From: an uncultured Alphaproteobacteria bacterium
GTDB taxonomy: Bacteria; Pseudomonadota; Alphaproteobacteria; DATDPM01
Assembly (NCBI GenBank): GCA_963841995.1
Contig: CAWJEX010000022.1
Span: 15,972-79,971 of the forward strand
Direction: 5' to 3'
Length of the DNA stretch: 64,000 bases
Shown: positions 697 to 58,156 of the stretch, one piece after another
How the letters are laid out: every line of letters starts with the position of its first letter
Numbering within the stretch: position 1 is the stretch's first letter
Made by a program: the position numbers and the translations under genes
Notes under the pieces: model-generated
The model's database searches: none
What the model was told of the DNA's origin: nothing
The model's input: only the letters and a program-made list of their open reading frames with translations

Positions 697-862
697 GCGA
701 GACAAAATCGCACTCCAACCGATTGAAAAATTTGGCTCAGAAAGAGGTCTGGTGCCCAGGGGCGGGATTCTCCAAGTTATAAAAATCAATGGCTTACAAA
801 AAGGTGGGACACCGAATCTTCCCGTATCGTCATTACGCTTTCCGGGGAAAGTGTCCCACCGG
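697..862 (+). repeat. dispersed composite repeat, copy 1 (left arm diverged)
   Basis: TGGTGCCCAGGGGCGGGATTC at 750-770. Hairpin arms are GTGGGACAC at 804-812 and GTGTCCCAC at 851-859 (38-nt loop). It aligns by eye with copies 2-9. Confidence 0.85.
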
Positions 863-1101
863 TTCCACATCTTAGCCGCCGAAAATTTCTGATTTGCGCC
901 ACAAGCAAACAAATCGGATCTGCGGCGTACAATCCCACCTTTTGCCACCGCGCCCCGGGCGTACGGCATGCTTGGCCATGATCTCATTTCGGCTGCACCA
1001 AACTTATTGCCAGTTTACCATACCCGCCGGCAAACCCTGGAGGTCGTATGCGCAAGGGTTGGACATGGAAACTGACGCGTTTTACTGCGAACGCTGGGCT
1101 A

Positions 1102-1653
1102 ATGTCTCGTCTCGCCTCGCTTTTTTCGACGAACGACCGCAACCCGAATGTGATGTCAGAAGATTTTATCCGACGTTTGTTCGCGGACCCGGAAATGCTG
1201 CGCATGGGTCATTTACAGCGGCAAGAAGATCTTAATCTGGGCCTTGGCTGGCTGTATTACGCGCTTGGACGAATCGTCCGGCCGAAGCGCGTCGTGGTGA
1301 TAGGATCGCTTCGAGGCTTTGCGCCCAGCATCATCGCGAAAGCCTTGTTGGACAACGTTGAAGGCGGTGATGTTCTCTTCATCGATCCGTCTTACATCAA
1401 TGAATTTTGGGCCGATCCGGCGGAAGTTGACGCCCATTTCCGGCAGTTGGGGACTTCAAACGTCCGTCACTACCGTTACACGACCCAAGAATTCACGGCG
1501 ACACCCGCCTATGCGGAGCTAAGTGATGTCGGATTGTTGATGATCGACGGCCTTCACACGGCGGAGCAAGCCAGACTCGATTATCTCGCTTTTCTCGACA
1601 AGCTAACCGAGAACGCCGTCCCGCTCTGTACGCGGCGCCTCCTTGATAGTTGA
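1102..1653 (+). CDS. class I SAM-dependent methyltransferase (Methyltransf_24/CmcI-like), probably 3'-truncated
   Basis: The translation has VVVIGSLRGF...FIDPSY...LLMIDGLHTAEQ, typical of this family. The C-terminus ends abruptly where an AT-rich junction begins. The start codon choice is uncertain. Confidence 0.6.
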   Translation: MSRLASLFSTNDRNPNVMSEDFIRRLFADPEMLRMGHLQRQEDLNLGLGWLYYALGRIVRPKRVVVIGSLRGFAPSIIAKALLDNVEGGDVLFIDPSYINEFWADPAEVDAHFRQLGTSNVRHYRYTTQEFTATPAYAELSDVGLLMIDGLHTAEQARLDYLAFLDKLTENAVPLCTRRLLDS

Positions 1654-1866
1654 CTAAATTAATTACTCTGATTCAACTTGTCGTGCCACCCCAAGTCGGC
1701 CTAATCGATCTGTCCTAACTCGCCCCGCTGGCTCACCCTGGACCGCTTGGGGTGAGCCGATCGATGTGGCCCGTCATCAGCCCGCGGCGGAAATTAAGGG
1801 CGCGACTTAGGCGGGGAAGGACGGCATTATGCCGCCGCGGACGTCGCAAGCAACCAAGGGGGACAA

Positions 1867-2235
1867 ATGAAAAATGTGGGTACGCGATTTATTTCTATCG
1901 CCATCATTTATGGGCTGCTCGGGATGGGGTTCGGGATTTGGATGGGCATGACCCAATCCTTGGCCTCTGCCCCCCTCCATACCCATATCAATTTGATCGG
2001 CTGGGCCTCGTTCGCGATATTCGGTCTGATCTACCGGGCCTTTCCGGCGTTGGCCGAATCCAAACTCGCCGCCGTGCATTTTTGGGTCGCCAATCTCGGC
2101 GCGGTCACCTTCATTGCGGGAATCGTCATCGTCATGCCCACCGGCAATATGCTGCCCGTCGCCGTTGGCGCGTTGATCATGCTGATTTCGATGATCATCT
2201 TCGCGGTCAATTTTTGGCAGAACGCGCGGGGATAA
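1867..2235 (+). CDS. small 4-TM membrane protein with HTHINLIGW motif
   Basis: 122-aa ORF made of four hydrophobic segments with an HxH motif in helix 2. A GGGGGA sequence sits upstream of the ATG. Function unknown. Confidence 0.55.
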   Translation: MKNVGTRFISIAIIYGLLGMGFGIWMGMTQSLASAPLHTHINLIGWASFAIFGLIYRAFPALAESKLAAVHFWVANLGAVTFIAGIVIVMPTGNMLPVAVGALIMLISMIIFAVNFWQNARG

Positions 2236-2268
2236 ACTGCATGGTCCCGCCGCTTCCTTCAATTCTAT

Positions 2269-2295
2269 AGCCGGCCAGCGTGACGCTGGCCGGCT
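2269..2295 (+). terminator. perfect 12-bp stem / 3-nt loop hairpin downstream of the 1867..2235 ORF
   Basis: AGCCGGCCAGCG-TGA-CGCTGGCCGGCT lies 34 nt after the stop codon. No T-tract follows, so terminator function is an inference. Confidence 0.4.
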
Positions 2296-2697
2296 GTGCG
2301 CCCGCCCCGGAACCTGAGGAAAATTGCTTCGCCATAAATTCATCAGATGCTTGCGATTGATTAGTGGCAGCGGGTGAATATCCACTGGCAATTTCCGTTC
2401 GCAATGCATTGTCCGCTTGAGGCATCACAGCCGAGCGGCGCTATCGGTTTAATACCACAGCCAAATTGCGCAGCGAGCCTTTTGAGCGAGCGTTCAAGAA
2501 AATTGTTTCACCAAAAACACCACCCTCAAAAAGCAAGAGCGCATCAAACGATTCCAAGTAGTGCTCCGACAAGATCATTAAATGTTGGATTCATTACTAG
2601 TATCAGGTCCGGAGTCTGTGACCGCAATTTCCCCAACCCTATAGCCGGGTTCTTCTTATTGATTAAAGCCAATGCGCTGTGTACGCGAGCTTTATCC

Positions 2698-3099
2698 CGC
2701 GTCGGCTTCATCGTCACCAACCTGTTACGCCCGGCCGAGCGCGTCGTCGGTTTCTACAATCAGCGCGGCACGGCGGGGCAATCGATCAAGGAAGGCAAGA
2801 ACGCGATGAAGTGGACGCGGCTGTCATGCTGCTCCTTCGCAGCCAACGCCGTCCGGCTTCCGCTCCATGCGCTGGCCTACAATCTTGCCAACTTCATGCG
2901 GACGCTGGCATTGCCCGAGGCTGTCGCACACTGGTCGCTGACCAGCGTCAGGGAGAAGCTCGTCAAGATCGGTGCCAAGATCGTTACAAATTCGCGCTAT
3001 ATCATCTTCCAGATGGCCGAGGTTACGGTGTCGCGGCAGCTGTTCGCTGCTATCGTGCGGCTCATTGCGCGATTGCACGCGCCCCCAGTGCCAGCGTGA
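2698..3099 (+). mobile_element. IS1380-family transposase, C-terminal fragment only
   Basis: FIVTNL...FYNQRGTAGQSIKEGKNAMKWTRLSCCSFAANAVRLPLHALAYNLANF...WSLTSVREKLVKIGAKIV matches the conserved IS1380 C-terminus. No N-terminal part is present. Confidence 0.75.
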
Positions 3100-4837: not shown

Positions 4838-5065
4838 AAAGAGATAGTAGTATCCAGGATTTCGAGGTGGGACAAAATCGCGTCGTAACTGATTGAAAAA
4901 ATCTGCCTAGGAAAAAAGTTTGGTGCCCAGGGGCGGGATTCTCCAAGCTATAAAAAATTAATGGCTTACAAAAAATTGGGGCACCGAATCTTCCCGTATC
5001 GTCATTACGCTTTCCGGGGAAAGTGTCCCTCCGGTTTTGCGCCATAAACACGAAAAACTGACGAA
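4838..5065 (+). repeat. dispersed composite repeat, copy 2 (full length, hairpin arms mutated)
   Basis: Left arm is GTATCCAGGATTTCGAGGTGGGACAAAATCGCGTCGTAACTGATTGAAAAA. The 21-mer is at 4921-4941. The hairpin arms are degenerate (TTGGGGCAC / GTGTCCCTC). Confidence 0.85.
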
Positions 5066-10354: not shown

Positions 10355-11191
10355 ATGGCAGTGTGGTGGCTGATACTGACGCGCACGTGGCGACGGGCGC
10401 GAAAGGACAATCTCTTGGGCCTCGCCGCCGGAGCCGCTTATTACGCGGTCCTTTCCATCTTTCCGGCGCTCACGGCAGTTGTTTCGCTTTACGGCCTCGT
10501 CGCCGATCCGAACATTGTGGAGCGGCAGGTCACGGCCATACAGGGGCTCTTACTGCCCGAAGCCGTCGAGTTGATCTCAACATGGCTTCAGACCCTTGCG
10601 CAAGGCCCGCCACTCAGGTTCGGCATCGGCCTCATCCTGAGCGTGGTGCTGGCGATCTGGAGTGCCTGGTCCGCAACAGGAATGCTGATGGTCGCCGTCA
10701 ATGTCTGCTACGGGGAGACGGAGAAGCGAAATTTCATCTGGTTCCACCTGCGTGCCTTGGCGCTCGCTCTCGGACTCGCGCTGTTTGGCATTGCAGCGCT
10801 CGGCCTCATTGCGGTGTTGCCCGCGGCAATCGGCTTTTTGCCGGTGTCCAAAGCCTGGGGCGACGTAATTGCGCTCGTTCGCTGGCCGATCCTGGCTGGG
10901 ATGGCCATCCTCGCGCTCGCCATCGTATATCGCTACGCCCCGGACCGGGTGCAGCCGAAATGGCAATTGCTCAGTTGGGGAGCGGCCACAGCGACAGCGC
11001 TGTGGCTCTTCGGCTCGATTGTCTTCACAATGTTCGTTTCAAAAGTTGGCAGTTACGACAAGACCTACGGCTCGCTCGGCGCCGTCGTTATCTTGCTGCT
11101 GTGGCTCTACTTGAGCGCCTATATCATCTTGATCGGTGCGGAACTGAACGCGGAAATAGAGCGTCAAGCGGCGCCGAAGGGCAAGCGGTAG
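10355..11191 (+). CDS. YihY/BrkB family membrane protein
   Basis: 278 aa with LAAGAAYYAVLSIFPALTAVVSLYG...YGSLGAVVILLLWLYLSAYIILIGAELNAE, the YihY signature. Confidence 0.85.
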   Translation: MAVWWLILTRTWRRARKDNLLGLAAGAAYYAVLSIFPALTAVVSLYGLVADPNIVERQVTAIQGLLLPEAVELISTWLQTLAQGPPLRFGIGLILSVVLAIWSAWSATGMLMVAVNVCYGETEKRNFIWFHLRALALALGLALFGIAALGLIAVLPAAIGFLPVSKAWGDVIALVRWPILAGMAILALAIVYRYAPDRVQPKWQLLSWGAATATALWLFGSIVFTMFVSKVGSYDKTYGSLGAVVILLLWLYLSAYIILIGAELNAEIERQAAPKGKR

Positions 11192-11199
11192 GCGACCCC

Positions 11200-11583
11200 A
11201 TGGCAAAGTTCATGCGCGGCTTGCTGGTGACCATCACCGCGATCGTGAGCACCTCGGCCTCCACATACGCCGGCGATGCAGCCTTTGGCACAATCGCTCC
11301 TGGGGCATATCTGGGAAACCAGCAAGCCGGAATGCAACAGATGTGTCTCAAGGCGCAGAACAATTATGTCAATCACGCCGGACCGCCGCCGCCACCAGCC
11401 TGTCAGACTGCCACGGCCCCGATGCTGCCTAATCGTAAGGCAACACAGGCCACGCCGCAGACTTCGTGCCTGCCTTTCGGTAACGGCGGGACGCGCTGCA
11501 CGACCTTGGTTCCCAGCAAGCCTCCGAGCGCTACGACTTGTCTACCCCTTGGAAATGGAAAGATGGCCTGTACGGCGCAATAA
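11200..11583 (+). CDS. small secreted six-Cys protein, paralog A
   Basis: Signal peptide MAKFMRGLLVTITAIVSTSASTYA and an internal duplicated motif CLPxGNGxxxCT. A near-identical paralog lies at 52193..52579. Confidence 0.6.
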   Translation: MAKFMRGLLVTITAIVSTSASTYAGDAAFGTIAPGAYLGNQQAGMQQMCLKAQNNYVNHAGPPPPPACQTATAPMLPNRKATQATPQTSCLPFGNGGTRCTTLVPSKPPSATTCLPLGNGKMACTAQ

Positions 11584-11917
11584 ATCGTTGGCCGTCTGCG
11601 CCGAAAAATGGGGCACCCGGCGAAAAGAACGGAACAGCCTAAAAAAGAGGCGCAAGTTATTATGAAAGTGCGGCCGCCCAAAGGCTAGGCGGCAACCATT
11701 GCCACGTCACGCGAAGCAGCGCGCTCGATCGCCGCCACCAGGTTCCCAAGTCATGACTCATCGGCGCGAGCCTAGACAATGAAAAGCTGCTCAAGCTCAG
11801 CTTCGAGGCTGGGGGAGAAAACGATGGTTCGTCAGACTTGATAGCTGGCGAGGCTCCCACGGAGTTAGGGGGTCTATCCGATTTTTCGTACCAAGGCGTG
11901 ACAGTTACATTCTTCGC

Positions 11918-18025: not shown

Positions 18026-19313
18026 TCAATGCTGCGCACCGCTCGATCTCCCGCCGCCGCTACGCCCGCCGCCCGACGGCGCGCGGCCGCTAGGAGCAGG
18101 GGTAGACGGTGCGCGGCCCGCAAGTGCCGCGGACGGCACTGCCATGGAGCTTCGGCTTGCTTGGCCACGTTGTTCGTGAACTTGTACATCGGATTTGGAC
18201 GTTCCAAGGCCTTCGAATACGGGCGCTGCGGGACGCGCCGCTGCCGATGGACTGACCTGTGTGCCATGCACCTGCGCCGCGGGACGCGCTGCTACTGATG
18301 GACTGACCTGAGTGCCATGCGCCTGCGCCGCGGGACGCGCTGCTACTGATGGACTGACCTGAGTGCCATGCGCCTGCGCGCCGCGCTGCACTTGCGTGCC
18401 AGCCGGCTGTTCGAAACCACGGAACTCGCGGCTAGCGGCAGCCGGCCTGACCGGAGCTGCTTGGAATTGTGCACGAGTTCTCTGGAGTGGGATAGGCAAC
18501 ACCACGGCGGTGATTTGAATCGTGCTGCCAAGTGTCGCCCATTATCGCCTGACGCCCACGGTGGTCGATATTGTACCTGTTGATGGCGTTGTACCTGTCG
18601 TGATCCCAGTGGACGAAATGATGGTCCCAATCCCACCATTCCCATCCCCACAGCGCGCCGATAATGGCGAAGCCTAAGCCAAAATCGATCCCCGGATAGC
18701 ACCCCGACAGCGGATAATAGAATGGAGGGAAAGCCGCATACGGCCATGGCCCGTAGACCAGCCCCGGATTGTAACAAGGGACATAGACTGTTTCGGGATT
18801 CGCTGGCTCGATCGTGACCGTTTGCCCCTGAGTTGAGATCACTTCTTGGGGGGTGGTGGAAAGGGTTCCCGCAGATTGTGCTTCTCGGCGTAGCCGCTGG
18901 ACGGAATCCATGACGTCGTTCGGCTGCGCCAGGAAAGCGTTGCCAATTTTCTGTGTCCAATCGAGCTGGGTGTCCATCATTTTCAGAACTTGAGGAAAAG
19001 GGACCAGCGATTTGACGCTGGGATCCCAATCCTGCGGCTCGAGCGCGACAGCCAGCTGGTCGCCATGGAGCCCTGCATTCTTTGGGTCTTGCTCCCAACG
19101 GTCCGCTTGGACGATCTCGAAGGGATAGGTGGCGGCGGTTAGAATTTGTGTCAGAAGCTGATCGGGATAGAGCGCGATGGGCGCCAAGAGCTGGTCAAGC
19201 TGTTCCGGCGAAAAGACAGGGGCAGGGGCTCCCTGCGGATAAGCCATGGTTGGGATATTCATGACGACGATGGCAAGAAAGCCGGCCATCATACGGATCA
19301 GGGTCGCCTTCAT
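18026..19313 (-). pseudogene. DUF3300 domain protein, frameshift near 18490, C-terminal 17-aa tandem repeats
   Basis: Signal peptide, then FSPEQLDQLLAPIALYPDQLLTQILTAATYPFEIVQADRW... (DUF3300). After ...HRRGVAYP the reading continues as IPLQRTRAQFQ... in the frame of ORF 18026..18505. Confidence 0.75.
18228..18385. repeat. 51-bp tandem repeat, about 3 units, inside the DUF3300 gene
   Basis: GATGGACTGACCTG(T/A)GTGCCATGC(A/G)CCTGCGCCGCGGGACGCGCTGCTACT is repeated head to tail. It encodes AQ(A/V)HGTQVSPS(V/A)AARPA repeats. Confidence 0.8.
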
Positions 19314-19616
19314 GTCTTACCCTTTCCTCCTACTGTGCCGTCTATCCAAGCGGCCACAACCGCAATCGCGGGCTGAAATTGAGACCAGCCATAATTTCAG
19401 GTAGTGCCCGGCAGCTATCAGATCAACCCTGTGGAATTACTTGTTTCCTAGGGTTGAGGCCGGCCCGCCCCGGCAATGAATCACTGTAGCCGTCCCACTT
19501 TGAAATCTGGACACCACCACCTGCTCTGAAACAATATCCATGCCACTCAGAAACACAATCGCTAACTCAGCTGTGGCCAAGCCGAAACAACGCTTGTATC
19601 GCTCTGAGCTGATGCT

Positions 19617-19687
19617 GGTTCCAAGGGCACCGAGATTAGCTGTCTCATGATGAAACCGGTGGGACACTTTCGGCGAAAAGCTTAGGG
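19617..19687 (-). repeat. dispersed composite repeat, copy 10 (partial, the only inverted copy)
   Basis: GGTTCCAAGGGCACCGAGATTAGCTGTCTCATGATGAAACCGGTGGGACACTTTCGGCGAAAAGCTTAG is the reverse complement of the right end of copy 4 (29345-29416). Confidence 0.6.
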
Positions 19688-20016
19688 GGCGCATTGCCTT
19701 CGCCAAAGCAGCGGCCGCCACCCAATCCACTTAAAAACGCGACCTCTGGGATTCTTCACGGACGACTTTGTAAGCTAGTTTCTCTGACGCGCACGTCGTC
19801 GCGAGATTGACGGTCGACTTAATGAGGCGTTACTGCACTTCGTTATTGCCCTTGAGCTCATTTTCGGAGAGCGACAATACCGCCATTGATCTCATGGTGA
19901 TTTCTTCACACCTGGGGCTGAGGGAATATTGAACTGGAGCGAATGCGGCCCGCATCGTGCGCCACGCGCATGCGTGTCGGTCGTGCGTGAGTAAAAGCCG
20001 TGGAGGATCACGCGCC

Positions 20017-21728: not shown

Positions 21729-22223
21729 CTACTGCTCGCCGCCGAGCCAGTTGTACTGGTCGAAGTCCTCCATGGCGCGGTCCTTTTGGCCCTTGAGCAT
21801 GTAGGCGGTGCCCCGGGCGTAGTAGGCATTGCGGTAATTCGGGTCGAGCCGGATGACCTCGTCGTAGTCCTGAATGGCGCGGTCGTATTGGACCTCGCCA
21901 GCGTAGGCCTTGAAAGCGTAGGCGGCGCCCCGCATGACGAAGGCTTCGGGGAAATTCGGGTTGAGCCGGATGGCTTGGTCGTAGTCCTGAATGGCGCGGT
22001 CATGTTCGCCCTTCAAATGGTAGGCACTGCCCCGGTAGTAGTAGGCTTGGGCGAGATTTTTCTGCGTCTCCTGGCCCGACCGGATAATCGCCGTGCAGCG
22101 GGGGATCGTGACATCGGGATTGGGGTCTAAGCACCTCTGATGATCGAGAGTCTGGGCGGCCGCTGCGACGCTGAAGCCGACGATATACATGAGCACGAAT
22201 AGCGGTGCCCACCTACTGCGCAT
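21729..22223 (-). CDS. TPR repeat protein, secreted
   Basis: Signal peptide plus repeated AYYxRGxAYxxKGxxDRAIQDYDxxIRLxPN units. A further TPR-like unit (RGIAIRAQGWQARAAADFAKAKQLNPQL) lies downstream in another frame, so the 3' end may be disrupted. Confidence 0.7.
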   Translation of the reverse strand: MRSRWAPLFVLMYIVGFSVAAAAQTLDHQRCLDPNPDVTIPRCTAIIRSGQETQKNLAQAYYYRGSAYHLKGEHDRAIQDYDQAIRLNPNFPEAFVMRGAAYAFKAYAGEVQYDRAIQDYDEVIRLDPNYRNAYYARGTAYMLKGQKDRAMEDFDQYNWLGGEQ

Positions 22224-22346: not shown

Positions 22347-22982
22347 TCAGACATCGACCTGCTCGGCTATGGCGAGAGCGTCGTCCACCTCGATGCCGAG
22401 GTAACGGACAGTGCTCTCGATCTTGGTGTGCCCGAGCAGCAATTGTACGGCACGTAGATTGCCAGTGCGGCGGTAGATGAGGGTTGCTTTGGTTCGAGTT
22501 AACGAATGCGTCCCGAAAAAATGCGGGTCCAATCCGATGCCTGCAAGCCATCCAGACACCAGCCGAGCGTACTGCCGTGTCGTCATGCATCGACCGTGGT
22601 TGCGGCAACTCGCGAAAAGGTATTCGCCCGGCCTCTTACCCGCAACCTTGATATAGTCGTCGACCGCTTCTCGGGTCTGTTCGGTCAATTCGAATTTGAC
22701 CGGATGTCCGGTTTTCTTTTGGCGGACGGATGCGCGACCCATCGTAATACCTTGGGGAGCTACGTCTTCGACCTTCAGGCTGACGACGTCGCAGCCCCTG
22801 AGCTTGCTATCAATGGCCAGGTTGAACATGGCAAGGTCGCGCTTCTTGCCGTCGACCTGCGGCTTGGTCCGAATGGACCAGACATGCTTGGTTCGCAACG
22901 GCGGTTTGGCCCCGACCACCTTTCCCTTATGCCATGGGGTTCGACGCACTTCCTGTTGGTTCGTATCGTTTGGTTCCTGCAT
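22347..22982 (-). CDS. short (211 aa) tyrosine recombinase/integrase, catalytic domain only
   Basis: LAIDSKLRGCDV (catalytic Arg), HSLTRTKAT (His..Arg box) and LLGHTKIESTVRYLG (His and Tyr nucleophile). No N-terminal arm- or core-binding domain is present. Confidence 0.8.
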   Translation of the reverse strand: MQEPNDTNQQEVRRTPWHKGKVVGAKPPLRTKHVWSIRTKPQVDGKKRDLAMFNLAIDSKLRGCDVVSLKVEDVAPQGITMGRASVRQKKTGHPVKFELTEQTREAVDDYIKVAGKRPGEYLFASCRNHGRCMTTRQYARLVSGWLAGIGLDPHFFGTHSLTRTKATLIYRRTGNLRAVQLLLGHTKIESTVRYLGIEVDDALAIAEQVDV

Positions 22983-23269
22983 GGCGTTCCTCCATTGAAG
23001 TAGAGGCTGATCACCATGCGCCGTTATTACGTCGCTGATTCACACAGTTAAACAAATCAATCGCTTACTGGAATGGCCCAGGTCACCAGCCTAGGCTTTT
23101 GTTCGTGCTGCCGAAGAAATGCGAAGGCAAACCGTCGAAGTCGGAGCGGACGCGATGGTTTCATCAGCCGCATTTGGTGTGACCTTCACCGTCGCCTTGC
23201 CGCCTCGATGAGTCCGAAGAGCTATCGTACCAGAGGTATGCCGAACTTAATTGGCGGCATTTGGGCCGT

Positions 23270-23319
23270 ATAACCCAATGGGTTATTTTTCTCTAGTATG
23301 GAATAACCCATTGGGTTAT
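23270..23319 (+). promoter_or_regulatory. two 17-bp palindromes upstream of the toxin-antitoxin operon (candidate operators)
   Basis: ATAACCCAATGGGTTAT (23270-23286) and ATAACCCATTGGGTTAT (23303-23319), ending 9 nt before the ATG at 23328. Confidence 0.55.
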
Positions 23320-23327
23320 ATAGAGCC

Positions 23328-25950: not shown

Positions 25951-26099
25951 TCTGTTTTCGAGAAGCTGGTGGTATCCAGGATTTCGAGGTGGGACAAAAT
26001 CGCGTCGTAACTGATTGAAAAATTTGGCGCGAAAAAAGAGTTTGGTGCCCATGGGCGGGATTCTTCAAGTTATAAAAATCAATGACTTACAAAAAAGTG
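25951..26099 (+). repeat. dispersed composite repeat, copy 3 (right part missing)
   Basis: Full left arm, 21-mer at 26043-26063 with one substitution, and the A-rich linker. The hairpin is absent. Confidence 0.8.
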
Positions 26100-29170: not shown

Positions 29171-29416
29171 GCCACTTCCGGGCGGGTGGTGGTATCCAGG
29201 ATTTCGAGGTGGAACAAAATCGCGTCGTAACTGATAAAAAAGCTTTGGCTTGGAAAAAAGTTTGGTGCCCAGGGGCGGGATTTAACAAGTTTGGTGAATC
29301 AATAGGTTAGAAAAAAAGTGGGACACAAAAACTTCCCGTAGCTTTCTAAGGTTTTCGCCGAAGGTGTCCCACCGATTTCATCACTAGACAGCTAATCTCG
29401 GTGCCTTTGGAACCGG
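29171..29416 (+). repeat. dispersed composite repeat, copy 4 (full length, longest right end)
   Basis: Left arm, 21-mer at 29263-29283, and hairpin arms at 29318-29326 / 29364-29372. The right extension is shared with inverted copy 10. Confidence 0.85.
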
Positions 29417-37746: not shown

Positions 37747-37920
37747 ATGGTTGTATCCAGGGTGGGACACCGTCCTAAGACATTGGCAATATTCGGCATT
37801 TGGGAACTGGTGCCCAGGGGCGGAATCACATAAGCTATAAAAATCAATGGTTTACAAAAAAGTGGGACACTGAATCTTCCCGTGGCGTTATTAGGCTTTC
37901 CAGGGAAAGTGTCCCACCGC
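37747..37920 (+). repeat. dispersed composite repeat, copy 5 (short-left-arm subtype)
   Basis: GTATCCAGGGTGGGACAC left arm, 21-mer variant at 37808-37827, and hairpin arms at 37862-37870 / 37909-37917. Homology with copy 9 continues to about 38075. Confidence 0.85.
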
Positions 37921-38032
37921 GAACGTCATTGTACGCGCCTTTCCTATCGGTTCCCTGATGTCGGAATTCCGATTCGAATGCGTCATGCGATTGTCTCCCG
38001 CAGACTGGGCAAATAAGGGTTACGAGTTACCC

Positions 38033-39628
38033 TCAGTGCAGAAGACCCGCAAGTCGTTCGCCGCGCTCGAACTGTTCCATAATGGCAGGGCTGAGAAGAC
38101 TTATATTACTTCCCGGTTGCCCTTGGGGTGAGATCTGGAGCATCTGCGCTGCGGCGTCGCGAGCTTCTTTTTCATGGCCGAGGAGCGCCTGAACGACCGC
38201 CAGATACAAGTGATTCGGCAAGAACATCGGATTGAGCTCCACGCCTCGCTTCAGTGGCGCGAGAGCTTGTTCGTAGGCTCCTGTGGCGAACAGACAATTG
38301 GCGAGGCCGAAAAAATAAAAGGTGGACGGCTGTGGGTTGAGATGCATCGCAGTTTCGATGTGGTGGAGAGCTTCCTGTGCCCGATCAACAAAGCACAAGC
38401 TGAAAGAAGCGAAGAGGTAAGCATCGGCATCATTGGGGTCAAGCATGCAGGCGCGCCTCGTTTCCGCAACTGCTGAAGCGGCATTGTTCCGCCATAACTG
38501 TACCCATCCCAAGATCGAGTGACCGATGGGGAGCAGTTCATCCAGCTCGACGGCACGCTCGGCATGAATGAGCGCCGGATCGAGTGTCCGCTCGCGGATA
38601 GGAACCCAATTCTGCGACCATTGCAAAGTGTAACAGCGGGCCAACCACGCATGCGCTAACGCATAAGCAGGGTCGAGTTCGATTGCGCGCTTGAAGTGCG
38701 CCTCGGCCTCGAAAGAGCCCTCCCGCGTATATCGCCAGTGACACTCCAAGCCTCGCATGAGCGCATCATGTGCGGCGGGACTAGCCGTTCCTTCATATCC
38801 AAGCCGTTCGGCTTCAAGGCTCGTAAGCTTGATCTTGAGCGCATCTACGATCGCATGGCTCACATCGTCCTGCACCGTAAAGACGTCGTCTAAACTTCGA
38901 TCATAGCGCTCGGCCCAAAGCGTTCGGTCGGATCGCGTATCCACGAGCTGGGCACTGATGCGCAGCCGATTATCCGCGCGCCGAACACTGCCTGTGACGA
39001 AGTAACGAACGCCGAGCTCTTCCGCAATTGCCGAAGATCGCTTGTCCGTGTGCCTGTATGCGAACGAAGTGTGGCGGCACAGCACGAACAAGCCGGAGAT
39101 TTTGGAAAGATCCGTGATTATGTCGTCAGTAATGCCGTCGGAAAAATATTGCTGCTCGGGCTCGCCGCCTTCGTCCGCAAACGGAAGCACTACGACCGAT
39201 GGTTTTTCCTCAAAATTTCTTACGGTTTCTCGCATCCACGCGGATTTCTCGCCTCCCACCGCTCCTTCGCTGCGGATCGTTATGGCGTAGGAACCCTTGG
39301 GCACATCAATGTGGACGGGATCCAACCGGCCCTCGCCGTCGTAATACTCGCGAAGCTTTGCGCGCAGCCGGCCGGCTTCCACACGCACGATGGGATCGGA
39401 CACCGGATCGAACCCGTGATCTCGGCCAAAAACCTCGATTCCGAGCGTGTAGCCCTTAAGCCGGTCCGCGCGTCCGGCCAAGGTCTCGTCGACAATGAAC
39501 TGAAGGAACCGCCGCTGGCGGTCGGAGTGGGCAAACAAGGAACTTTTGACTATCCGATCTGCGGCAGACCGGACCGCAGTCAAATCGGCCTGTAGCCCTG
39601 CTTCGCCGATGCTTTCCTTGTTACCCAT
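38033..39628 (-). CDS. TolB-N-like + TPR regulatory protein (no DNA-binding or cyclase domain)
   Basis: SSLFAHSDRQRRFLQFIVDETLAG...IRVEAGRLRAKLREYY, then PSVVVLPFAD..GEPEQQYFSDGITDDIITDLSKISGLFV, then TPRs. This is the architecture seen as the C-terminal part of CadC- or cyclase-type regulators. Confidence 0.7.
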   Translation of the reverse strand: MGNKESIGEAGLQADLTAVRSAADRIVKSSLFAHSDRQRRFLQFIVDETLAGRADRLKGYTLGIEVFGRDHGFDPVSDPIVRVEAGRLRAKLREYYDGEGRLDPVHIDVPKGSYAITIRSEGAVGGEKSAWMRETVRNFEEKPSVVVLPFADEGGEPEQQYFSDGITDDIITDLSKISGLFVLCRHTSFAYRHTDKRSSAIAEELGVRYFVTGSVRRADNRLRISAQLVDTRSDRTLWAERYDRSLDDVFTVQDDVSHAIVDALKIKLTSLEAERLGYEGTASPAAHDALMRGLECHWRYTREGSFEAEAHFKRAIELDPAYALAHAWLARCYTLQWSQNWVPIRERTLDPALIHAERAVELDELLPIGHSILGWVQLWRNNAASAVAETRRACMLDPNDADAYLFASFSLCFVDRAQEALHHIETAMHLNPQPSTFYFFGLANCLFATGAYEQALAPLKRGVELNPMFLPNHLYLAVVQALLGHEKEARDAAAQMLQISPQGQPGSNISLLSPAIMEQFERGERLAGLLH

Positions 39629-44057: not shown

Positions 44058-44262
44058 ACTGTTTCCGAGCAGGTGGTGGTATCCAGGATTTCGAGGTGGG
44101 ACAAAATCGCGTTCTAACCCATTGAAATATTTGGCCCGAAAAAAGACTTTGGTGCCCAGGGGCGGGATCCAACAAGCGTGATAAATCAATGGCTTACAAA
44201 GAAGTGGGACACTCAAACTTCCCATAGCTTTCTGAGGTTTTCCGGGAAAGTGTCCCACCGGC
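44058..44262 (+). repeat. dispersed composite repeat, copy 6 (full length)
   Basis: Left arm from CTGTTTCCGAGCAGGTGGTGGTATCC, 21-mer at 44150-44170, and hairpin arms at 44204-44212 / 44250-44258. Confidence 0.85.
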
Positions 44263-44428
44263 TCGAGGATCAAACAACCAAACCCGACCCCAATCGCGCA
44301 CCCGGGTTTTGCGGTCTTGAATTGTCGCTTCCGATCAAAGCACAAGAACTCCTCGTGCATGTCACCCCGCTGGTTGCAACGGGGCGGGGCCGGCCCGAAG
44401 GCCGGCCCCTTATCCATGAGCTCGGGGA

Positions 44429-50370: not shown

Positions 50371-50520
50371 GGTCTGGTGCCGAGGGGCGGGATTCTTCAA
50401 GTCATAAAAATCAGTGGGTTACAAAAAAGTGGGACACTGAATCTTCCCGTGGCGTTATTAGGCTTTCCGGGGAAAGTGTCCCACCGGTTTTGCGTCATTA
50501 ACACGGAAGACCGACGAATC
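50371..50520 (+). repeat. dispersed composite repeat, copy 7 (no left arm)
   Basis: 21-mer variant at 50375-50395 and hairpin arms at 50429-50437 / 50476-50484. The right flank is shared with copy 2. Confidence 0.85.
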
Positions 50521-50775: not shown

Positions 50776-50981
50776 TGACCTGACCGGGCCTTTTTGTACC
50801 AAGCGGTTTGATAGAAACTGGCTTGGAAAGGAGCTTGGTCATGGCGAAGAAGAGGTTCAGCCCGGAGCAGATCGTGACGCTGCTGCGGCAGATCGAAGTA
50901 GCGACGGCGCAAGGGAAATCGGTGTCGGTGGCATGCCGGGAGGCTGGGATTTCGGATCAGAGTTATTTCCGCTGGTACAAA
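50776..50981 (+). mobile_element. IS3-family remnant: IRL-like end + first ~47 codons of OrfA
   Basis: TGACCTGACCGGGCC at 50776. [45 protein letters not shown], then homology stops. Confidence 0.6.
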
Positions 50982-51548
50982 AATCCGTCAGGCCACCCAG
51001 CCGCCGCTCGGCTCTCACGCGGATTTCGGCGGCATCTACCTCTAACTGGCGGTTCTTCGCTTGGCGGGCGTAGGCGGCTAAAGCAGTGGCTTGGTCGCGG
51101 ATGTCCTTCACTGCATCAACAGATTTTGCCTCTGCAAGCGCAAAGCAAGCGGAGCCGTTTTAGGCGCTTGGCGGTCATCGGGCAGTGCAGATTATGTGAT
51201 CGCCTCGACGAATTTCCGGGAAGCCCGCCGTAGATGTCTTCAGTCCAGGCTCACACACAACGGCTGATCCCGTCCATCGATCAAGATGAATTAATCCGAT
51301 CGATTGATGGCCTATCGAATGATATCCCCCTCGCAAGGCGATAAGGATTACCACTGCAACAACGGCGACGGCGAAAATGATTGAAATGCGTAAATTCATA
51401 ATCCGAATATGACACGGATCACAGAACTGCTTAATCATCAAGATGGCTTGATTTCAAGCTGACCTACTACCGACCCGTCTGGGCTTCCGATAGGCTGCGG
51501 CCTTAAGGCCATCTTTACCGTTACCGGGGATAATCATAGCAAGCAGCA

Positions 51549-52076
51549 GTGGGCCTGCGACTTGGGCGCCGGCCGAAAACCCTTGGGGGATGGTCGGAAT
51601 CCGTGGGAACCATCGAACGCACCACCAAGGCGGTCACTATCGTAATGGCCGATGACGATCGCGACGACCGCATGCTGGTCAAGGATGCGTTCGCGGAAAC
51701 GTACCCCGCCTGCGGCCTCGATTTTGTCGAAAACGGGGAAGAGCTGCTCGATTACCTGGCTCAGCGCGGCAAAGGTGCGCCCTATCCGGGACTGATTCTC
51801 CTTGACCTCAATATGCCGAGAATGGATGGCCGCGAGGCGCTGGCGGAGATTAAGAGGAATCGGAACCTCAGGCGCATTCCGGTCGTGATCTTCACGACCT
51901 CACGTGCTGAAAACGATATTCGGCACACGTATGACCTCGGCGCAAGTTCCTTCATCACCAAGCCAGTAACGTTCGAGGGATTGCTCGAAGTCATCCGTGC
52001 ATTTGGCAAATACTGGACGGAAATCGTAGAGCTTCCGTGCGGCCGCGCACTGCCAGTCCCGCAAGAGACTTCGTAA
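51549..52076 (+). CDS. single-domain response regulator, paralog of 26263..26742
   Basis: IVMADDDRDDRML...LILLDLNMPRMDGREALAEIKRNRNLRRIPVVIF...GASSFITKP. The start codon is uncertain. Confidence 0.7.
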   Translation: MGLRLGRRPKTLGGWSESVGTIERTTKAVTIVMADDDRDDRMLVKDAFAETYPACGLDFVENGEELLDYLAQRGKGAPYPGLILLDLNMPRMDGREALAEIKRNRNLRRIPVVIFTTSRAENDIRHTYDLGASSFITKPVTFEGLLEVIRAFGKYWTEIVELPCGRALPVPQETS

Positions 52077-52192
52077 CATCGCCCCCGAGCGCCACAACCT
52101 TGGTTAAGCGCAGGGCTCCATCAATAAAGAACCTCGCCAGCGTGAACCGGTGTCCGGCTGGCGAAGCGGAGGGGCAAGCGGTGGGCAACCCT

Positions 52193-52579
52193 ATGGCAAA
52201 GTTCAAGCGCAGCTTGTTAGTGACCATCATCGCGATTTTAAGCACCTCGATCTCTGCATACGCCGGCGATGCAGCCTTTGGCACAATCGGTCCTGGGGCA
52301 TATCTCGGAAACCAGCAAGCCGGCATGCAACAGATGTGTCGCAACGCTCTGAATAATTATCTCAATCGCGCCGGGCCGCCGCCGCCCGCGGCGTGTCAAA
52401 CCGCCAACACCCCGACGCTACCTAATCGTTCAAAGGTAACACAGCTCACGCCGCAAACTTCGTGCTTGCCTTTCGGCAATGGTGGGACGCGCTGCACGAC
52501 CTTGGTACCCGGCCACCCTCCGAGCGCTACCACCTGCCTGCCGCTCGGAAATGGAAAGATGGCCTGCACGACGCAATAA
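52193..52579 (+). CDS. small secreted six-Cys protein, paralog B
   Basis: MAKFKRSLLVTIIAILSTSISAYA signal. It is collinear with 11200..11583, including both CLPxGNGxxxCT motifs. Confidence 0.6.
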   Translation: MAKFKRSLLVTIIAILSTSISAYAGDAAFGTIGPGAYLGNQQAGMQQMCRNALNNYLNRAGPPPPAACQTANTPTLPNRSKVTQLTPQTSCLPFGNGGTRCTTLVPGHPPSATTCLPLGNGKMACTTQ

Positions 52580-52722
52580 ATCGTCGACCTCATCGTGGCT
52601 ACCGCCGCGGTGACGATATGAAGGAATTTTTCAAGGGCTGGGATTCCGACGCGGTTTTCGCGCGGCAAAGAAGAGTGGTGGCAGAGCGGTGCTTTTGCGA
52701 TGGCAAGGGCCTCCTTCCGCTG

Positions 52723-56342: not shown

Positions 56343-56450
56343 ACAGGGGCGGGATTCTTCCAGTTATAAAAACCAATAGCTTACAAAAAAGTGGGACACT
56401 AAATCTTCTCACAGCGTTATTAGACTTTCCAGGGAAAGTGTCCCACTGAT
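56343..56450 (+). repeat. dispersed composite repeat, copy 8 (left-truncated inside the 21-mer)
   Basis: Starts CAGGGGCGGGATTC. Hairpin arms at 56390-56398 / 56437-56445. Confidence 0.85.
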
Positions 56451-56568
56451 TCCGTCTTAAAAACGAGGGCTACCAAACTTTCTCACTTTTTGCTCAAGAG
56501 CGGACAATCCGGGACTACGCCCTGCACTTCCACCTTTAGAGTTGGACAGCCAAATAGCCGCAGGCACC

Positions 56569-56908
56569 CTATGTGCGTTTGGCGGGTTTGTCGCTTTCGA
56601 GCGCTGTAAGGCCCGTAAGAACAACCGGGGGCCGGTTTGGGAACTCGGCAACAAGTGTTAGCTGGCCACCCAGACGCCTAACGAATTTCTGTAGTGTCGA
56701 AAGCAGCAAGTCCGATCTTTTTTCGAGTTCGCGAAACGCCATCTTGGGTAATGCCGAGTTCCTTAGCCAAGACAACTTGCGTTTTCTGGTGGGCCTGGCG
56801 CAGCTCGCGCAACGACATTTCCTCGGCGATAATCTCGGCCGCACGGGCTTTGATTTTGCCGCGCCGTTCGGGCGCTAGCCCCTTTCTGATGTGATCGATG
56901 TTCTTCAT
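56569..56908 (-). pseudogene. XRE-family HTH antitoxin (HigA-like), frameshift near 56730
   Basis: ...LRELRQAHQKTQVVLAKELGITQDGVSR continues as LEKRSDLLLSTLQKFVRRLGGQLTLVAEF in the frame of ORF 56569..56844. Confidence 0.65.
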
Positions 56909-56912
56909 ACCC

Positions 56913-57233
56913 CTACTTCCTTTCCTTCGTCTTGTCCTTCTGCTGTTTGATGCGAGTCAAATGCGCATCGAAACGAGCATCTGCCTTTGCGATCAGCTGT
57001 GCGTAAAATCGTCTTTCGTTGCCGCCCGACTTGTCACCGCCACATAAAATGATGGCCGTTCGCTCCGGGTCAAAGGCGAATGCGAAGCGCCAGACGCCAT
57101 TAGCAGCATTAAATCGTAGCTCCTTCATATTTGTGTAGCGTGAGCCATTGAGCGTATCGACGCGCGGCCGGCCCAGCTGCGGACCAATCTGTTCCAACAC
57201 TTCGATGTGAGCCAGCAATTCGTCCTGCACCAC
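56913..57233 (-). CDS. RelE/HigB-like toxin (Gp49-like), 5' end possibly frameshifted
   Basis: GPQLGRPRVDTLNGSRYTNMKELRF...VWRFAFAFDPERTAIILCGGDKSG. The frame stays open upstream to about 57285 (..WDVDLHDDFVPEYTELPQV), but the only ATG is 1 nt out of frame. Confidence 0.65.
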   Translation of the reverse strand: MVQDELLAHIEVLEQIGPQLGRPRVDTLNGSRYTNMKELRFNAANGVWRFAFAFDPERTAIILCGGDKSGGNERRFYAQLIAKADARFDAHLTRIKQQKDKTKERK

Positions 57234-57380
57234 TTGGGGCAGTTCCGTATACTCCGGGACAAAATCATCGTGTAAATCAACGTCCCAGCTTCATATCGTT
57301 ATTATGTCTCTCACTACATATGCTGTACAGTACATTTTTCAAGCGGATCGGGGCTCGGACGTTTGCTAAAGCGCCATTTG

Positions 57381-57566
57381 CGAGCAGGTGATGGTATCCA
57401 GCGTGGGACACCGGCCTAACACATTGACAATATTTGGTATTTTGGAACTGGTGCCCAGGGGCGGAATCATTCAAGCTATAAAAACCAATGGGTTACAAAA
57501 AAGTGGGACACTGAATCTTCCCATAGCGTTATTAGGCTTTCCCTTTCCAGCGAAAGTGTCCCACCA
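57381..57566 (+). repeat. dispersed composite repeat, copy 9 (short-left-arm subtype)
   Basis: Same subtype as copy 5. 21-mer variant at 57449-57468 and hairpin arms at 57503-57511 / 57556-57564 (44-nt loop). Homology with the copy 5 flank continues to about 57725. Confidence 0.85.
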
Positions 57567-58156
57567 CGAACGTCATTGTACGCGCCTCCCTCATCGGTTC
57601 CCTGATGGCGGGAATCCAATTCGAATGCGTCACGCGATTGTCTCGCGCAGACTGGGCAAATAAGGTTTAGGAGTCACAGTCAGTGCAGAAGACCCGCAAA
57701 ACTTCGGTGAGCAGATCGGTGAAAATCCCTGGCTGGGAAAGCTTGAAAACGTTAGTGTCGGTCACGGCGTATCAGTCCTTCAGTGGAGAGGTGGAGGCGT
57801 CGAATACCCCCACGATACGCCGCCTTACCCCCTCACGCCGTCACCAACTTTCGTGCATAGCTCACTCAAAACTCGCCTCGCGCCCGGCCGAGCACTCCAC
57901 TCGCGGATCGCAACTCGTAAACGCACCCATCCACGGATGCAGCGGCAACTGGGTCATCTGTGGGCTGAACTCAGCCCCCGGACCTTCCTAAGTATTTCCA
58001 CCGCTGGCGTCCGCTGGCACAATGAGTGCCTGCACCTCTGCCAAGATGAGCAAATTAAGATGGTTGCGAGTCCCACAACCAACGAAATGGTGTCCACGCC
58101 GCACTTCAGGCGATTTATCCTTTGCCAAAAGTGAGCGCTTTTGCGGCGGACTTGGC

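What the first reader, a model, noticed from the sequence alone, without database searches (positions are those of the whole stretch)
697..57725. Ten-copy, almost uniformly co-oriented composite repeat sits at the seams of the gene mosaic
Seen in sequence: a repeat of about 110-245 bp occurs at 697-862, 4838-5065, 25951-26099, 29171-29416, 37747-37920, 44058-44262, 50371-50520, 56343-56450 and 57381-57566, all in one orientation. A partial inverted copy lies at 19617-19687. A full copy has four modules. (L) A left arm, CTGTTTCCGAG..GGTGGTATCCAGGATTTCGAGGTGGGACAAAATCGCGTCGTAACTGATTGAAAAA. (T) TGGTGCCCAGGGGCGGGATTC. (A) An A-rich linker, ..AAGTTATAAAAATCAATGGCTTACAAAAAA. (H) GTGGGACAC-N37-44-GTGTCCCAC. 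GTGGGACA therefore occurs three times per copy, twice direct and once inverted, and the loop holds the palindrome CTTTCC-GG-GGAAAG. Copies are truncated at different modules, and two subtypes exist (a long left arm, and a short left arm in copies 5 and 9). All copies are intergenic and lie where functionally unrelated blocks meet. No transposase, reverse transcriptase or TnpB-like gene accompanies any copy. Inference: this could be a non-autonomous mobile element. Strong strand co-orientation is what single-strand IS200/IS605-type or REP/RAYT-type mobility would produce. It could instead be a recombination site that stitches cassettes together, or a structured RNA gene family. I do not recognise it as a named repeat family.
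Basis: partly seen in the sequence, partly recalled or inferred. Interest (0 to 1): 0.8.

Follow-up and report, generated by a model that had tools for sequence, protein, structure and literature searches.

The report
Stacked integrase attachment sites, tRNA-Phe type
The ten-copy repeat is the docking site that a family of phage and genomic-island integrases uses to insert DNA into the end of the phenylalanine tRNA gene, and the window is a stack of integrase-less gene blocks separated by these sites, which is a known way for bacteria to accumulate foreign genes.

Summary
In detail: there are 9 co-oriented copies plus 1 inverted fragment, far above chance. The repeat is not a MITE, a REP element or an RNA gene.

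- **Module T** is the reverse complement of the last 16-21 nt of tRNA-Phe(GAA).
- **Module A** carries an IHF-type consensus at a fixed distance from H.
- **GTGGGACA** is an integrase arm-type site. In relatives the motif changes at all four positions together with the integrase sequence.
- **Module L** is the integrase-proximal arm. In phage-like relatives it overlaps or directly follows the integrase stop codon.

One complete relative (L048) shows the integrated layout: flank, T, A, H, genes, xis-like, int, L, then an intact tRNA. The named prophage phi2LM21 has the same layout and a published att site in tRNA-Phe.

A full L-T-A-H copy is therefore an attP-like junction between two neighbouring integrated units. 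The window is a tandem array of at least 8 gene blocks (1-21 kb) bounded by these sites. Co-orientation follows from the polarity of site-specific recombination.

The unusual points are the number of sites and the total absence of a cognate integrase or any backbone remnant in 64 kb. This resembles cis-mobilizable elements built up by accretion. It is a new member of a known kind and of moderate interest.

The parts
668..867 (+). Copy c1, attP-like junction. The L arm (about 668-749) has inverted GCGTCCCAC and direct GGCGAGACAAAAT. T core 750-770. A with IHF-like AATCAATGGCTTA 771-803. H 804-859.
4846..5039 (+). Copy c2, attP-like junction. L about 4846-4920 (GTGGGACA at 4867). T 4921-4941. 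A 4942-4975. H about 4976-5031, degenerate (TTGGGGCAC...GTGTCCCTC). The right extension to 5065 is shared with c7.
19507..19720 (-). Copy c10, inverted. It consists of the 3' half of an H arm with the c4-type extension (19650-19720 read on the - strand) and, about 105 nt further on, the first ~45 nt of an L arm (19507-19545). These are the two ends of one unit with almost no interior.
   Evidence: (I2, I6)
25951..26099 (+). Copy c3. L 25951-26042 (GTGGGACA at 25989). T 26043-26063 with one mismatch. A 26064-26096. H is cut off after GTG.
29171..29381 (+). Copy c4, attP-like junction. L 29171-29262. T 29263-29283. A 29284-29317. H 29318-29372. The right extension to about 29422 is shared with c10.
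37747..37925 (+). Copy c5, attP-like junction, short-L subtype. L 37747-37807 (GTATCCAGG-GTGGGACAC). T 37808-37828, variant GGAATC. A 37829-37861. H 37862-37917. A 157-nt right extension to 38052 is shared with c9.
   Evidence: (D3, D5)
44058..44264 (+). Copy c6, attP-like junction. L 44058-44149 (GTGGGACA at 44096). T 44150-44170. A 44171-44203. H 44204-44258.
   Evidence: (the same copy in metagenome contig L055)
50371..50491 (+). Copy c7, attR-like, with no L arm. T 50375-50395 with one mismatch. A 50396-50428. H 50429-50484. The right extension to 50520 is shared with c2.
56343..56455 (+). Copy c8, with no L arm. The left third of the core is replaced (..CACAGGGGCGGGATTC). A runs to 56390. 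H 56391-56446.
57381..57571 (+). Copy c9, attP-like junction, short-L subtype. L 57381-57448. T 57449-57469, variant GGAATC. A 57470-57502. H 57503-57564 with a 6-nt duplication in the loop. The extension to 57699 is shared with c5.

Best explanation
**What the unit is.** The repeat is the attachment site of a family of tyrosine integrases, found in phages, satellites and genomic islands, that recombine with the 3' end of tRNA genes.

- **T** is the recombination core. It equals the last 16-21 nt of tRNA-Phe(GAA), written antisense on the + strand.
- **A** is an IHF-type bending site.
- **GTGGGACA** is the integrase's arm-type binding site. It occurs as an inverted pair in H, on the arm distal to int. 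A second pair lies in L, the arm that in complete elements follows or overlaps the integrase stop codon.

**How the array forms.**
1. When such an element integrates, the order in the window's + frame is: flank, T, A, H, element genes, (int), L, T, rest of the tRNA.
2. When further elements integrate next to it, each internal junction becomes L-T-A-H, which is an attP-like site.
3. The window is therefore a tandem array of at least 8 such units of 1-21 kb, built by site-specific accretion.
4. The cognate integrase and backbone genes are absent. The units resemble cis-mobilizable elements that could be excised or moved only by an integrase supplied in trans.
5. Co-orientation is forced, because integration at a polar core always yields direct repeats. 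The 'seams' are the ends of separately acquired DNA.

**Shown.** The identity of T. The site architecture and its co-variation with the integrase in relatives. The integrated layout in relatives. The absence of int in the window.

**Inferred.** That this array arose by serial integration and/or loss of int. That GTGGGACA is bound by Int and A by IHF. That an intact tRNA-Phe lies (or once lay) to the right of the window on the - strand.
For: **1. T is a tRNA 3' end**
- In relatives found through H alone, T is replaced by the reverse complement of the 3' ends of different tRNAs.
- In L022 the 17-nt T equals the end of an intact tRNA-Glu 2.75 kb away on the H side, in direct orientation. In L015 T equals the end of an intact tRNA-Phe(gaa) 2.6 kb away.
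- The window's T matches that tRNA-Phe end over 16-19 nt. It also matches the annotated tRNA-Phe att site of prophage phi2LM21 in 14 of its 16 nt (PMC5537653).

**2. A complete integrated relative**
- L048 reads: flank, T, A, H, primase ... AlpA-like, Int, GTGTCCCAC-N21-GGTGGGACAAT, then about 55 nt, then intact tRNA-Glu.

**3. attP-like configuration next to int**
- Viral contigs L047, L049, L050, L052 and L056-L058 have int-L-core-A-H contiguous.
- There the two L-arm sites lie inside the last integrase codons (..TNVSHRK..SGGTI..). The window's L arms align to this region.

**4. The motif co-varies with the integrase**
- GTGGGAC in the closest integrases (84-100% identity).
- GTGGGAA/TTCCCAC at all four sites at 51% identity (L059).
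- TGAGACA/TGTCTCA at all four sites at 42% identity (L061).
- TGTCTAACC in L062 and L064.
- CTGGACAC/GTGTCCAG in phi2LM21.

**5. IHF-like site**
- WATCAANNNNTTR sits about 20 nt before the first GTGGGACAC. It scores at least 8/9 in 33 of 39 copies against 0.7% of background windows. The NNNN positions vary.

**6. Variable cargo on the H side**
- Neighbours in relatives include bactofilin, a phage protease, a type III restriction enzyme, TetR, a GGDEF protein and a D5 primase, as expected for island interiors.

**7. The core is the best-conserved module**
- Mean pairwise identity among window copies is T 0.90, H 0.82, A 0.76 and L 0.53.

**8. Independent examples**
- L036 has two co-oriented copies 5.6 kb apart. 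The second has an integrase-less L arm.

**9. Precedent**
- Tandem islands at tRNA or tmRNA genes, including integrase-less cis-mobilizable units, are described (PMC3146451, PMC4383910).
Against: - No intact tRNA-Phe and no integrase of this family lies in the 64 kb. The anchor of the array is unseen.
- None of the 8 units keeps any remnant of int, xis or primase. The left edge of L falls within about 15 nt in five copies and at the same place in another genome. Independent decay of complete elements would be expected to leave ragged remnants.
- c5 and c9 are similar across the whole junction (L-short, T variant, A, H and 157 nt beyond, 89%). The similarity therefore spans the core, although the two arms of a junction should belong to different units.
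- c7 and c8 lack L in the middle of the array.
- Arrays of this size are rare. Islander found only 4 tandems of 3 or more among 3919 islands (PMC4383910). In the species-representative scan nearly every genome had a single exact H match, against 5 in this window.
- Binding by Int and IHF is inferred from sequence only.
Confidence: 0.8

Rival explanations
1. An active, integron-like cassette system. L-T-A-H (about 245 bp) would be the dedicated recombination site of integrase-less cassettes. A single integrase encoded elsewhere would routinely excise them as circles and re-insert them at the tRNA-Phe end or at any T in the array. The array would then be a working gene-capture platform, not the debris of decayed islands.
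For: - No backbone remnants in any of the 8 units.
- The left boundary of L is nearly constant in the window and is the same in L036 from another genome.
- Units are small (1-8.5 kb). One 1-kb unit's only recognisable gene is a Gp49/HigB-like toxin, reminiscent of toxin-antitoxin cassettes in chromosomal integrons.
- Integrase-less 2.6-2.75 kb units lie between a tRNA and T-A-H in L015 and L022.
- Cores are kept nearly intact in 8 copies.
- c10 looks like an almost empty unit with both ends.
Against: - No cognate integrase has been seen.
- Several sites are damaged: H lost in c3, H stems mutated in c2, L missing in c7 and c8, the core truncated in c8. That argues for decay.
- The 21-kb unit holds ordinary operons in both orientations.
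- There is no evidence of excision or of the same unit in another context. The only related contig (L055) differs by an IS110-like gene.
- This reading overlaps with the best explanation. It differs only in whether the system is active and specialised.
Confidence: 0.13
2. A non-autonomous transposable element (MITE, or a single-strand IS200/IS605 or REP/RAYT-type element) that has spread within the genome.
For: - Ten copies in 64 kb, against about one per genome elsewhere.
- The copies are more alike within the window than to copies in other genomes.
- A prominent hairpin and strong strand bias.
Against: - No target-site duplication beyond chance and no terminal inverted repeats.
- No RAYT, TnpA or TnpB gene was recognised among the ORFs scanned against Pfam.
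- The centre of the unit is a tRNA-Phe 3' end with an IHF-like site. In relatives the unit's arms abut a tyrosine integrase gene and an intact tRNA.
- Truncated copies stop at module borders that correspond to att arms.
Confidence: 0.03
3. A structured RNA or regulatory element: an sRNA gene family, or a terminator on the - strand formed by the H hairpin followed by a U-run.
For: - On the - strand H is followed by TTTTTTG.
- In 5 of 9 copies a - strand gene ends about 60-170 nt to the right of H.
- The inverted repeat keeps its complementarity when the motif changes in relatives.
Against: - No Rfam match, even at E<=1.
- Folding z-scores are only -0.2 to -3.2. The terminator scan does not call H.
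- The same motif change also occurs at the two L-arm sites on the other side of the core and inside the integrase ORF. A hairpin does not explain that.
- In A the conserved positions are ATCAA and TTA with a variable spacer, which is the pattern of a protein site and not of a helix.
- A secondary role as a terminator for the last cargo gene cannot be excluded.
Confidence: 0.04

Closest known systems
attP/attL/attR of tRNA-integrating tyrosine integrases. The closest named example is Sinorhizobium prophage phi2LM21 (MF614627; PMC5537653).
   Same: - The target is tRNA-Phe(GAA), with a 17-nt core at the CCA end.
- The integrase is 49% identical to that of the reference element L048.
- The layout is the same: int, inverted plus direct arm sites, about 60 nt, core, IHF-like AATCAACGACTTA, direct arm site, about 40 nt, inverted arm site.
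   Different: - The phi2LM21 arm motif is CTGGACAC/GTGTCCAG, not GTGGGACAC.
- phi2LM21 is one complete 46.6-kb prophage with its integrase. The window has ten sites and no integrase.
- The published paper describes only the 17-nt repeat, not the arms.
Tandem accretion of genomic islands and cis-mobilizable elements. Examples are ICESt1/CIME in Streptococcus thermophilus (Pavlovic 2004 and Bellanger 2011, cited in PMC5812530) and the ssrA islands of Dehalococcoides (PMC3146451).
   Same: - Several co-oriented copies of the displaced tRNA or tmRNA end, each bounding a block of unrelated genes.
- Some blocks lack any recombinase but keep both att sites.
   Different: - Dehalococcoides uses a serine recombinase and the tmRNA gene, and most of its islands keep an integration module.
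- Here the sites are lambda-type complex att sites of a tyrosine integrase, and none of the 8 units keeps its integrase.
Chromosomal integron cassette arrays (attC sites; CALINs)
   Same: - Co-oriented recombination sites separate unrelated, integrase-less gene blocks.
- One unit's only recognisable gene is a toxin of a toxin-antitoxin family.
   Different: - There is no attC architecture (R''/L''/L'/R' with GTTRRRY) and no IntI.
- The units are much larger (1-21 kb), hold multi-gene operons in both orientations, and presumably carry their own promoters.
- The core is a tRNA end.
REP/BIME, MITEs and IS200/IS605 ends
   Same: Intergenic, hairpin-containing and strand-biased repeats.
   Different: - The unit is about 245 bp and composite.
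- It has no target-site duplication or terminal inverted repeat and no RAYT or TnpA.
- It carries a tRNA-derived core and an IHF-like site.

Membership tests
Attachment site of a tRNA-targeting tyrosine integrase | The core is identical to the 3' end of a tRNA gene | tested here: met
   The window core TGGTGCCCAGGGGCGG(G/A)AT is the reverse complement of the tRNA-Phe(gaa) 3' end seen intact in L015. It resembles the annotated phi2LM21 att in tRNA-Phe.
Attachment site of a tRNA-targeting tyrosine integrase | An intact copy of the same tRNA gene lies at the other end of the element, in direct orientation with the fragment | tested here: inconclusive
   Met in relatives L015, L022 and L048. The window has no tRNA gene at all. 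The predicted position is to the right of 57.6 kb on the - strand, beyond or lost from the window.
Attachment site of a tRNA-targeting tyrosine integrase | A cognate integrase gene lies next to one arm | tested here: not met
   Met in relatives L047-L052, L056-L061, L048 and phi2LM21. In the window tblastn finds no relative. The only integrase fragment (22347-22982) belongs to another family. The sites are therefore filed as orphan att sites, not as complete elements.
Attachment site of a tRNA-targeting tyrosine integrase | Arm-type repeats lie on both arms and their sequence tracks the integrase | tested here: met
   Four sites per attP. The motif changes in concert with integrase divergence in L059, L061, L062, L064 and phi2LM21.
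Attachment site of a tRNA-targeting tyrosine integrase | An accessory bending-protein (IHF) site lies between the core and the arm site | tested here: met
   Consensus WATCAANNNNTTR at a fixed position scores at least 8/9 in 33 of 39 copies against 0.7% of background. This is a sequence match only.
Attachment site of a tRNA-targeting tyrosine integrase | Integrase-dependent recombination within the core | not testable with these tools
   Needs in vivo excision PCR or an in vitro assay.
Tandem accretion array / cis-mobilizable elements | Successive gene blocks, each bounded by co-oriented att sites and lacking recombination and transfer genes | tested here: met
   Nine co-oriented sites bound 8 blocks with no integrase of the family and no backbone genes.
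Tandem accretion array / cis-mobilizable elements | Mobilisation in cis or trans by a related element's integrase | not testable with these tools
   Neither the complete genome nor an experiment is available.
MITE / IS ends | Terminal inverted repeats and target-site duplications | tested here: not met
   The best flanking direct repeats are 4-5 bp, the same as for random positions. Ends do not match each other except through the arm motif.
REP/RAYT or IS200/IS605 | A short REP palindrome or subterminal hairpins, with a Y1 transposase (RAYT/TnpA) in the genome region | tested here: not met
   No such gene was recognised among the window ORFs scanned against Pfam. The unit is a 245-bp composite with a tRNA core.
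Integron attC | R''-L''...L'-R' imperfect palindrome with GTTRRRY, and IntI nearby | tested here: not met
   The sequence shows no such boxes. No IntI-like gene is present.
Known RNA family (Rfam) | A match to a curated covariance model | tested here: not met
   No hit at gathering thresholds in the whole window, and none at E<=1 on a full copy.

The most novel reading that the evidence does not exclude
The array is a working, integron-like gene-capture platform anchored at tRNA-Phe. Integrase-less cassettes would each carry a complete ~245-bp lambda-type attP (L-T-A-H). A single integrase encoded elsewhere would excise, shuffle and insert them in trans. That would be a second, independent invention of a cassette array, built on a tRNA-type core and arm-site/IHF architecture instead of attC/IntI.
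Probability: 0.13. Interest if true: 0.7.

Novelty: new member of a known kind. Interest (0 to 1): 0.35.

Why it matters
- It turns an unexplained ten-copy repeat into a readable map. Each T core marks the edge of a separately acquired block. The blocks include denitrification genes, chemotaxis and two-component genes, a chromate transporter and toxin-antitoxin genes. This shows how the mosaic was assembled.
- It defines the full attP architecture of an integrase family that is widespread in Alphaproteobacteria and reaches Gammaproteobacteria and Acidobacteria. The architecture is a core, an IHF-like site and four arm sites whose sequence tracks the integrase. The T-A-H signature is a practical marker for the far end of such islands, where no integrase is present and tools such as Islander do not call an island.
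- If the integrase-less units prove mobile in trans, the locus would be an unusually large natural example of cis- or trans-mobilizable cassettes.

Tried and rejected
- **tRNA or tmRNA gene in the window:** ARAGORN found none.
- **Rfam:** no hit at gathering thresholds or at E<=1.
- **DNA similarity to plasmids and phages:** no match.
- **Literature search for the motif strings:** only unrelated primer hits.
- **T as a small GC hairpin with covariation, nested in a structured RNA (note):** rejected. T has the exact register of tRNA ends (TGG, discriminator, 7-nt acceptor, 5-nt T stem). It matches intact tRNA genes nearby in L015, L022 and L048. The palindromy is inherent to tRNA-Glu-like ends.
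- **T as a retrovirus-like primer-binding site:** considered and dropped. Tyrosine integrases, not reverse transcriptases, accompany the site.
- **Tn7-like ends (GTGGG..GACAAAAT resemblance):** rejected. Tn7-like elements do not duplicate a tRNA end, and no TnsB-like gene is present.
- **GTGGGACA as iterons of the D5-type primase next to H in some relatives:** less likely than Int arm sites. Two of the four sites lie at the integrase end of the element, and the motif tracks the integrase.
- **Metagenome scan with the L arm:** gave a single 1.9-kb contig.
- **Extending the window through exact-protein look-ups:** gave only short contigs or nothing.
- **Intrinsic-terminator scan:** did not flag H.

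Full report

Yes. The repeat finder recovers the family at the stated coordinates. A profile HMM of T-A-H finds exactly ten hits in the window, nine on the + strand and one partial on the - strand. GTGGGACA occurs 20 times against 1.25 expected. The 16-nt start of module T occurs 8 times, all on the + strand, against 0 expected. The modular make-up, the truncations and the two L subtypes are as described. All copies lie between my ORF calls.

Small corrections:
- c1 begins near 668.
- The L arm carries a fourth, degenerate inverted site.
- c10 is two fragments, an H end and an L start about 105 nt apart.
- The loop palindrome is specific to this window.

**2. What is module T?**

I scanned one genome per species (185,579 species) for the H hairpin alone. 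This gave 42 stretches, about 37 of them true hits. They came mostly from diverse Alphaproteobacteria, with a few Gammaproteobacteria and Acidobacteria, and almost always one per genome.

In those loci A and H are conserved. T is replaced by the reverse complement of the 3' ends of different tRNAs, always in the register TGG, discriminator, 7-nt acceptor strand, 5-nt T-stem strand.

- In L022 the 17-nt T equals the end of an intact tRNA-Glu gene 2.75 kb away on the H side, in direct orientation.
- In L015 T equals the end of an intact tRNA-Phe(gaa) gene 2.6 kb away.

That is the classical signature of integration into a tRNA gene: a regenerated tRNA at one end and a displaced 3' fragment at the other (principle as in PMC4383910). 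The window's T is the tRNA-Phe end.

**3. What are L, A and H?**

*Integrated form.* Viral contig L048, read as its reverse complement, is a complete integrated relative. Its order is: flank, T, A, H, D5-type primase, terminases, capsid, AlpA-like protein, tyrosine integrase, stop codon, GTGTCCCAC-N21-GGTGGGACAAT, about 55 nt, then intact tRNA-Glu. So A-H is the arm far from int, and the two further GTGGGACA-type sites form the arm next to int.

*attP-like form.* In viral contigs L047, L049, L050, L052 and L056-L058 the two arms are contiguous (int-L-core-A-H). There the L-arm sites lie inside the last integrase codons, and the window's L arms align to that region.

*The motif tracks the integrase.* In more distant integrases it changes at all four sites together:
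- GTGGGAA/TTCCCAC at 51% identity (L059).
- TGAGACA/TGTCTCA at 42% identity (L061).
- TGTCTAACC in L062 and L064.
- CTGGACAC/GTGTCCAG in the named prophage phi2LM21. Its integrase is 49% identical to that of L048, and its att site in tRNA-Phe(GAA) is published (PMC5537653).

This concerted change on both sides of the core is what arm-type integrase-binding sites predict. A local RNA hairpin does not predict it.

*Module A.* It matches the IHF consensus WATCAANNNNTTR at a fixed distance from H. The score is at least 8/9 in 33 of 39 copies against 0.7% of background windows. The spacer varies while ATCAA and TTA stay fixed.

**4. What is the window, then?**

In the window's + frame an integrated unit reads T-A-H, cargo, L, T. 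A full L-T-A-H copy is the junction between two neighbouring units, which is an attP-like site. Nine co-oriented sites delimit 8 units of 1 to 21 kb. Their contents are unrelated:
- methyltransferases and a hydroxylase;
- a TonB/ExbB and receptor block, and DUF2950/DUF3300 genes;
- a chromate transporter;
- a molybdoenzyme, qNor and NnrS block;
- chemotaxis and two-component genes;
- a Gp49/HigB-like toxin gene.

Co-orientation follows from the polarity of the core, and the 'seams' are unit ends. T is the best-conserved module, with mean pairwise identity 0.90 against 0.53 for L. The intact tRNA-Phe should lie to the right on the - strand, but none is in the window. c10 looks like both ends of one unit with almost no interior, inverted. 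L036, from another genome, has two co-oriented copies 5.6 kb apart, and the second has an integrase-less L arm.

**5. What does not fit neatly?**

- No integrase, xis or primase of the family, not even a remnant, is found in the window. The one integrase fragment (22347-22982) is unrelated.
- The left edge of L falls within about 15 nt in five copies, and at the same place in L036. Independent decay of complete elements should leave ragged remains.
- c5 and c9 are 89% alike across the whole junction and 157 nt beyond. The similarity spans the core, although the two arms of a junction should belong to different units.
- Arrays this large are rare. Islander reports 4 tandems of 3 or more among 3919 islands (PMC4383910). 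The species scan found one exact H match per genome as a rule, against 5 in this window.

These points leave room for the reading that the units are integrase-less cassettes moved in trans. Such cis-mobilizable elements are proposed for Dehalococcoides in PMC3146451 and described for S. thermophilus in work cited in PMC5812530.

**6. Rivals**

- **MITE or single-strand transposition:** no target-site duplications beyond chance, no terminal inverted repeats and no Y1 transposase.
- **Structured RNA:** no Rfam hit even at E<=1, and unremarkable folding z-scores.
- **Terminator:** H is followed by a U-run on the - strand, and five - strand genes end about 60-170 nt to its right. A side role is possible, but the terminator scan does not call it.

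**7. Novelty and score**

The unit is an ordinary kind of thing, a complex att site of a tyrosine integrase targeting a tRNA end, and a published prophage has the same layout. Three things are new:
- the explicit architecture of this family's attP;
- its wide distribution;
- an unusually long, integrase-free stack of such sites.

I file it as a new member of a known kind, with interest 0.35. There is a 0.13 chance that it is an active integron-like cassette platform, which would deserve about 0.7.

Noticed in passing
L048 (IMGVR_UViG_2698536701_000003), whole 13 kb: A 12-kb tail-less element integrated at tRNA-Glu. It encodes a D5-type primase, small and large terminase, a protease-capsid fusion, a head decoration protein, an AlpA-like regulator and an integrase. 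It looks like a capsid-forming satellite in an alphaproteobacterial host.
   Followed up: partly
L055 (metagenome contig Ga0209415_10201471), about 1-1560 on the reverse strand: A related contig carries copy c6 with the identical left flank. Directly after the H arm it has what looks, by my reading of the translated sequence only (no family search was run), like an IS110-family transposase gene, where the window has the chemoreceptor gene. IS110-family elements are known to target hairpin repeats, so H may be an insertion hotspot.
   Followed up: no
window 37747-38052 and 57381-57699: Copies c5 and c9 are 89% alike over about 310 nt. The similarity spans the L arm, a T variant (GGAATC), A, H and 157 nt beyond. 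It crosses the recombination core, which simple independent accretion does not predict.
   Followed up: partly
window 56343-57571: The shortest unit is about 1 kb, between c8 and c9. Its only recognisable gene is a Gp49/HigB-like toxin (56913-57233, - strand), with a small neighbouring ORF. This resembles toxin-antitoxin cassettes in chromosomal integrons.
   Followed up: no
window 22347-24019: An unrelated tyrosine-integrase fragment (211 aa, - strand) lies next to a RelE/Xre toxin-antitoxin pair. This is inside the 21-kb unit and about 2.7 kb from the inverted copy c10.
   Followed up: partly
window 2374-3099, 1867-2235, 50808-51233: Gene fragments: the C-terminal third of a DDE_Tnp_1_4 transposase, a short COX1-like piece, and an IS3-type HTH_Tnp_1 ORF just right of c7. 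They point to further decay and IS traffic in the array.
   Followed up: no
window 11168-11593 vs 52161-52589; 26354-26551 vs 51779-51976: A ~430-nt direct duplicate (85%) and an inverted pair of paralogous response-regulator genes (76-80%) sit in different units of the array.
   Followed up: no
window 18223-18392 and 21791-22024: A tandem repeat of 51 nt x3 (GC-rich). A second repeat of 117 nt x2 lies inside the TPR protein gene.
   Followed up: no
L002, L003, L008, L035, L036 and others, flanking the T-A-H copies: Short repeats of the type AAAGCGGACAT / ATGTCCGCTTT are scattered through intergenic DNA of many soil alphaproteobacterial genomes. This is a separate, REP-like family.
   Followed up: no
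L030 (Thermotogaceae MAG), L032 (Acidoferrales MAG), L051 (viral contig): Dense arrays of GTGGGACAC/GTGTCCCA(C) in unrelated taxa look like iterons or operator arrays and lack the T-A-H context. In L032 they lie near an integrase-like gene.
   Followed up: no
L047, L049, L050, L052 vs window and L048: Within the same integrase family the tRNA-derived core can lie in either orientation relative to the arms. It is sense in L047-L052 and antisense in the window, L048 and phi2LM21. Integrase-proximal and integrase-distal positions relative to the tRNA are therefore swapped between subgroups.
   Followed up: partly
window 56343-56357 and L011 7108-7125: In c8 and in L011 only the left third of the core is replaced (..CACAGGGGCGG; TTGCGACCAGGGGCGG). 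This may mark the crossover point, or integration at a secondary site.
   Followed up: no
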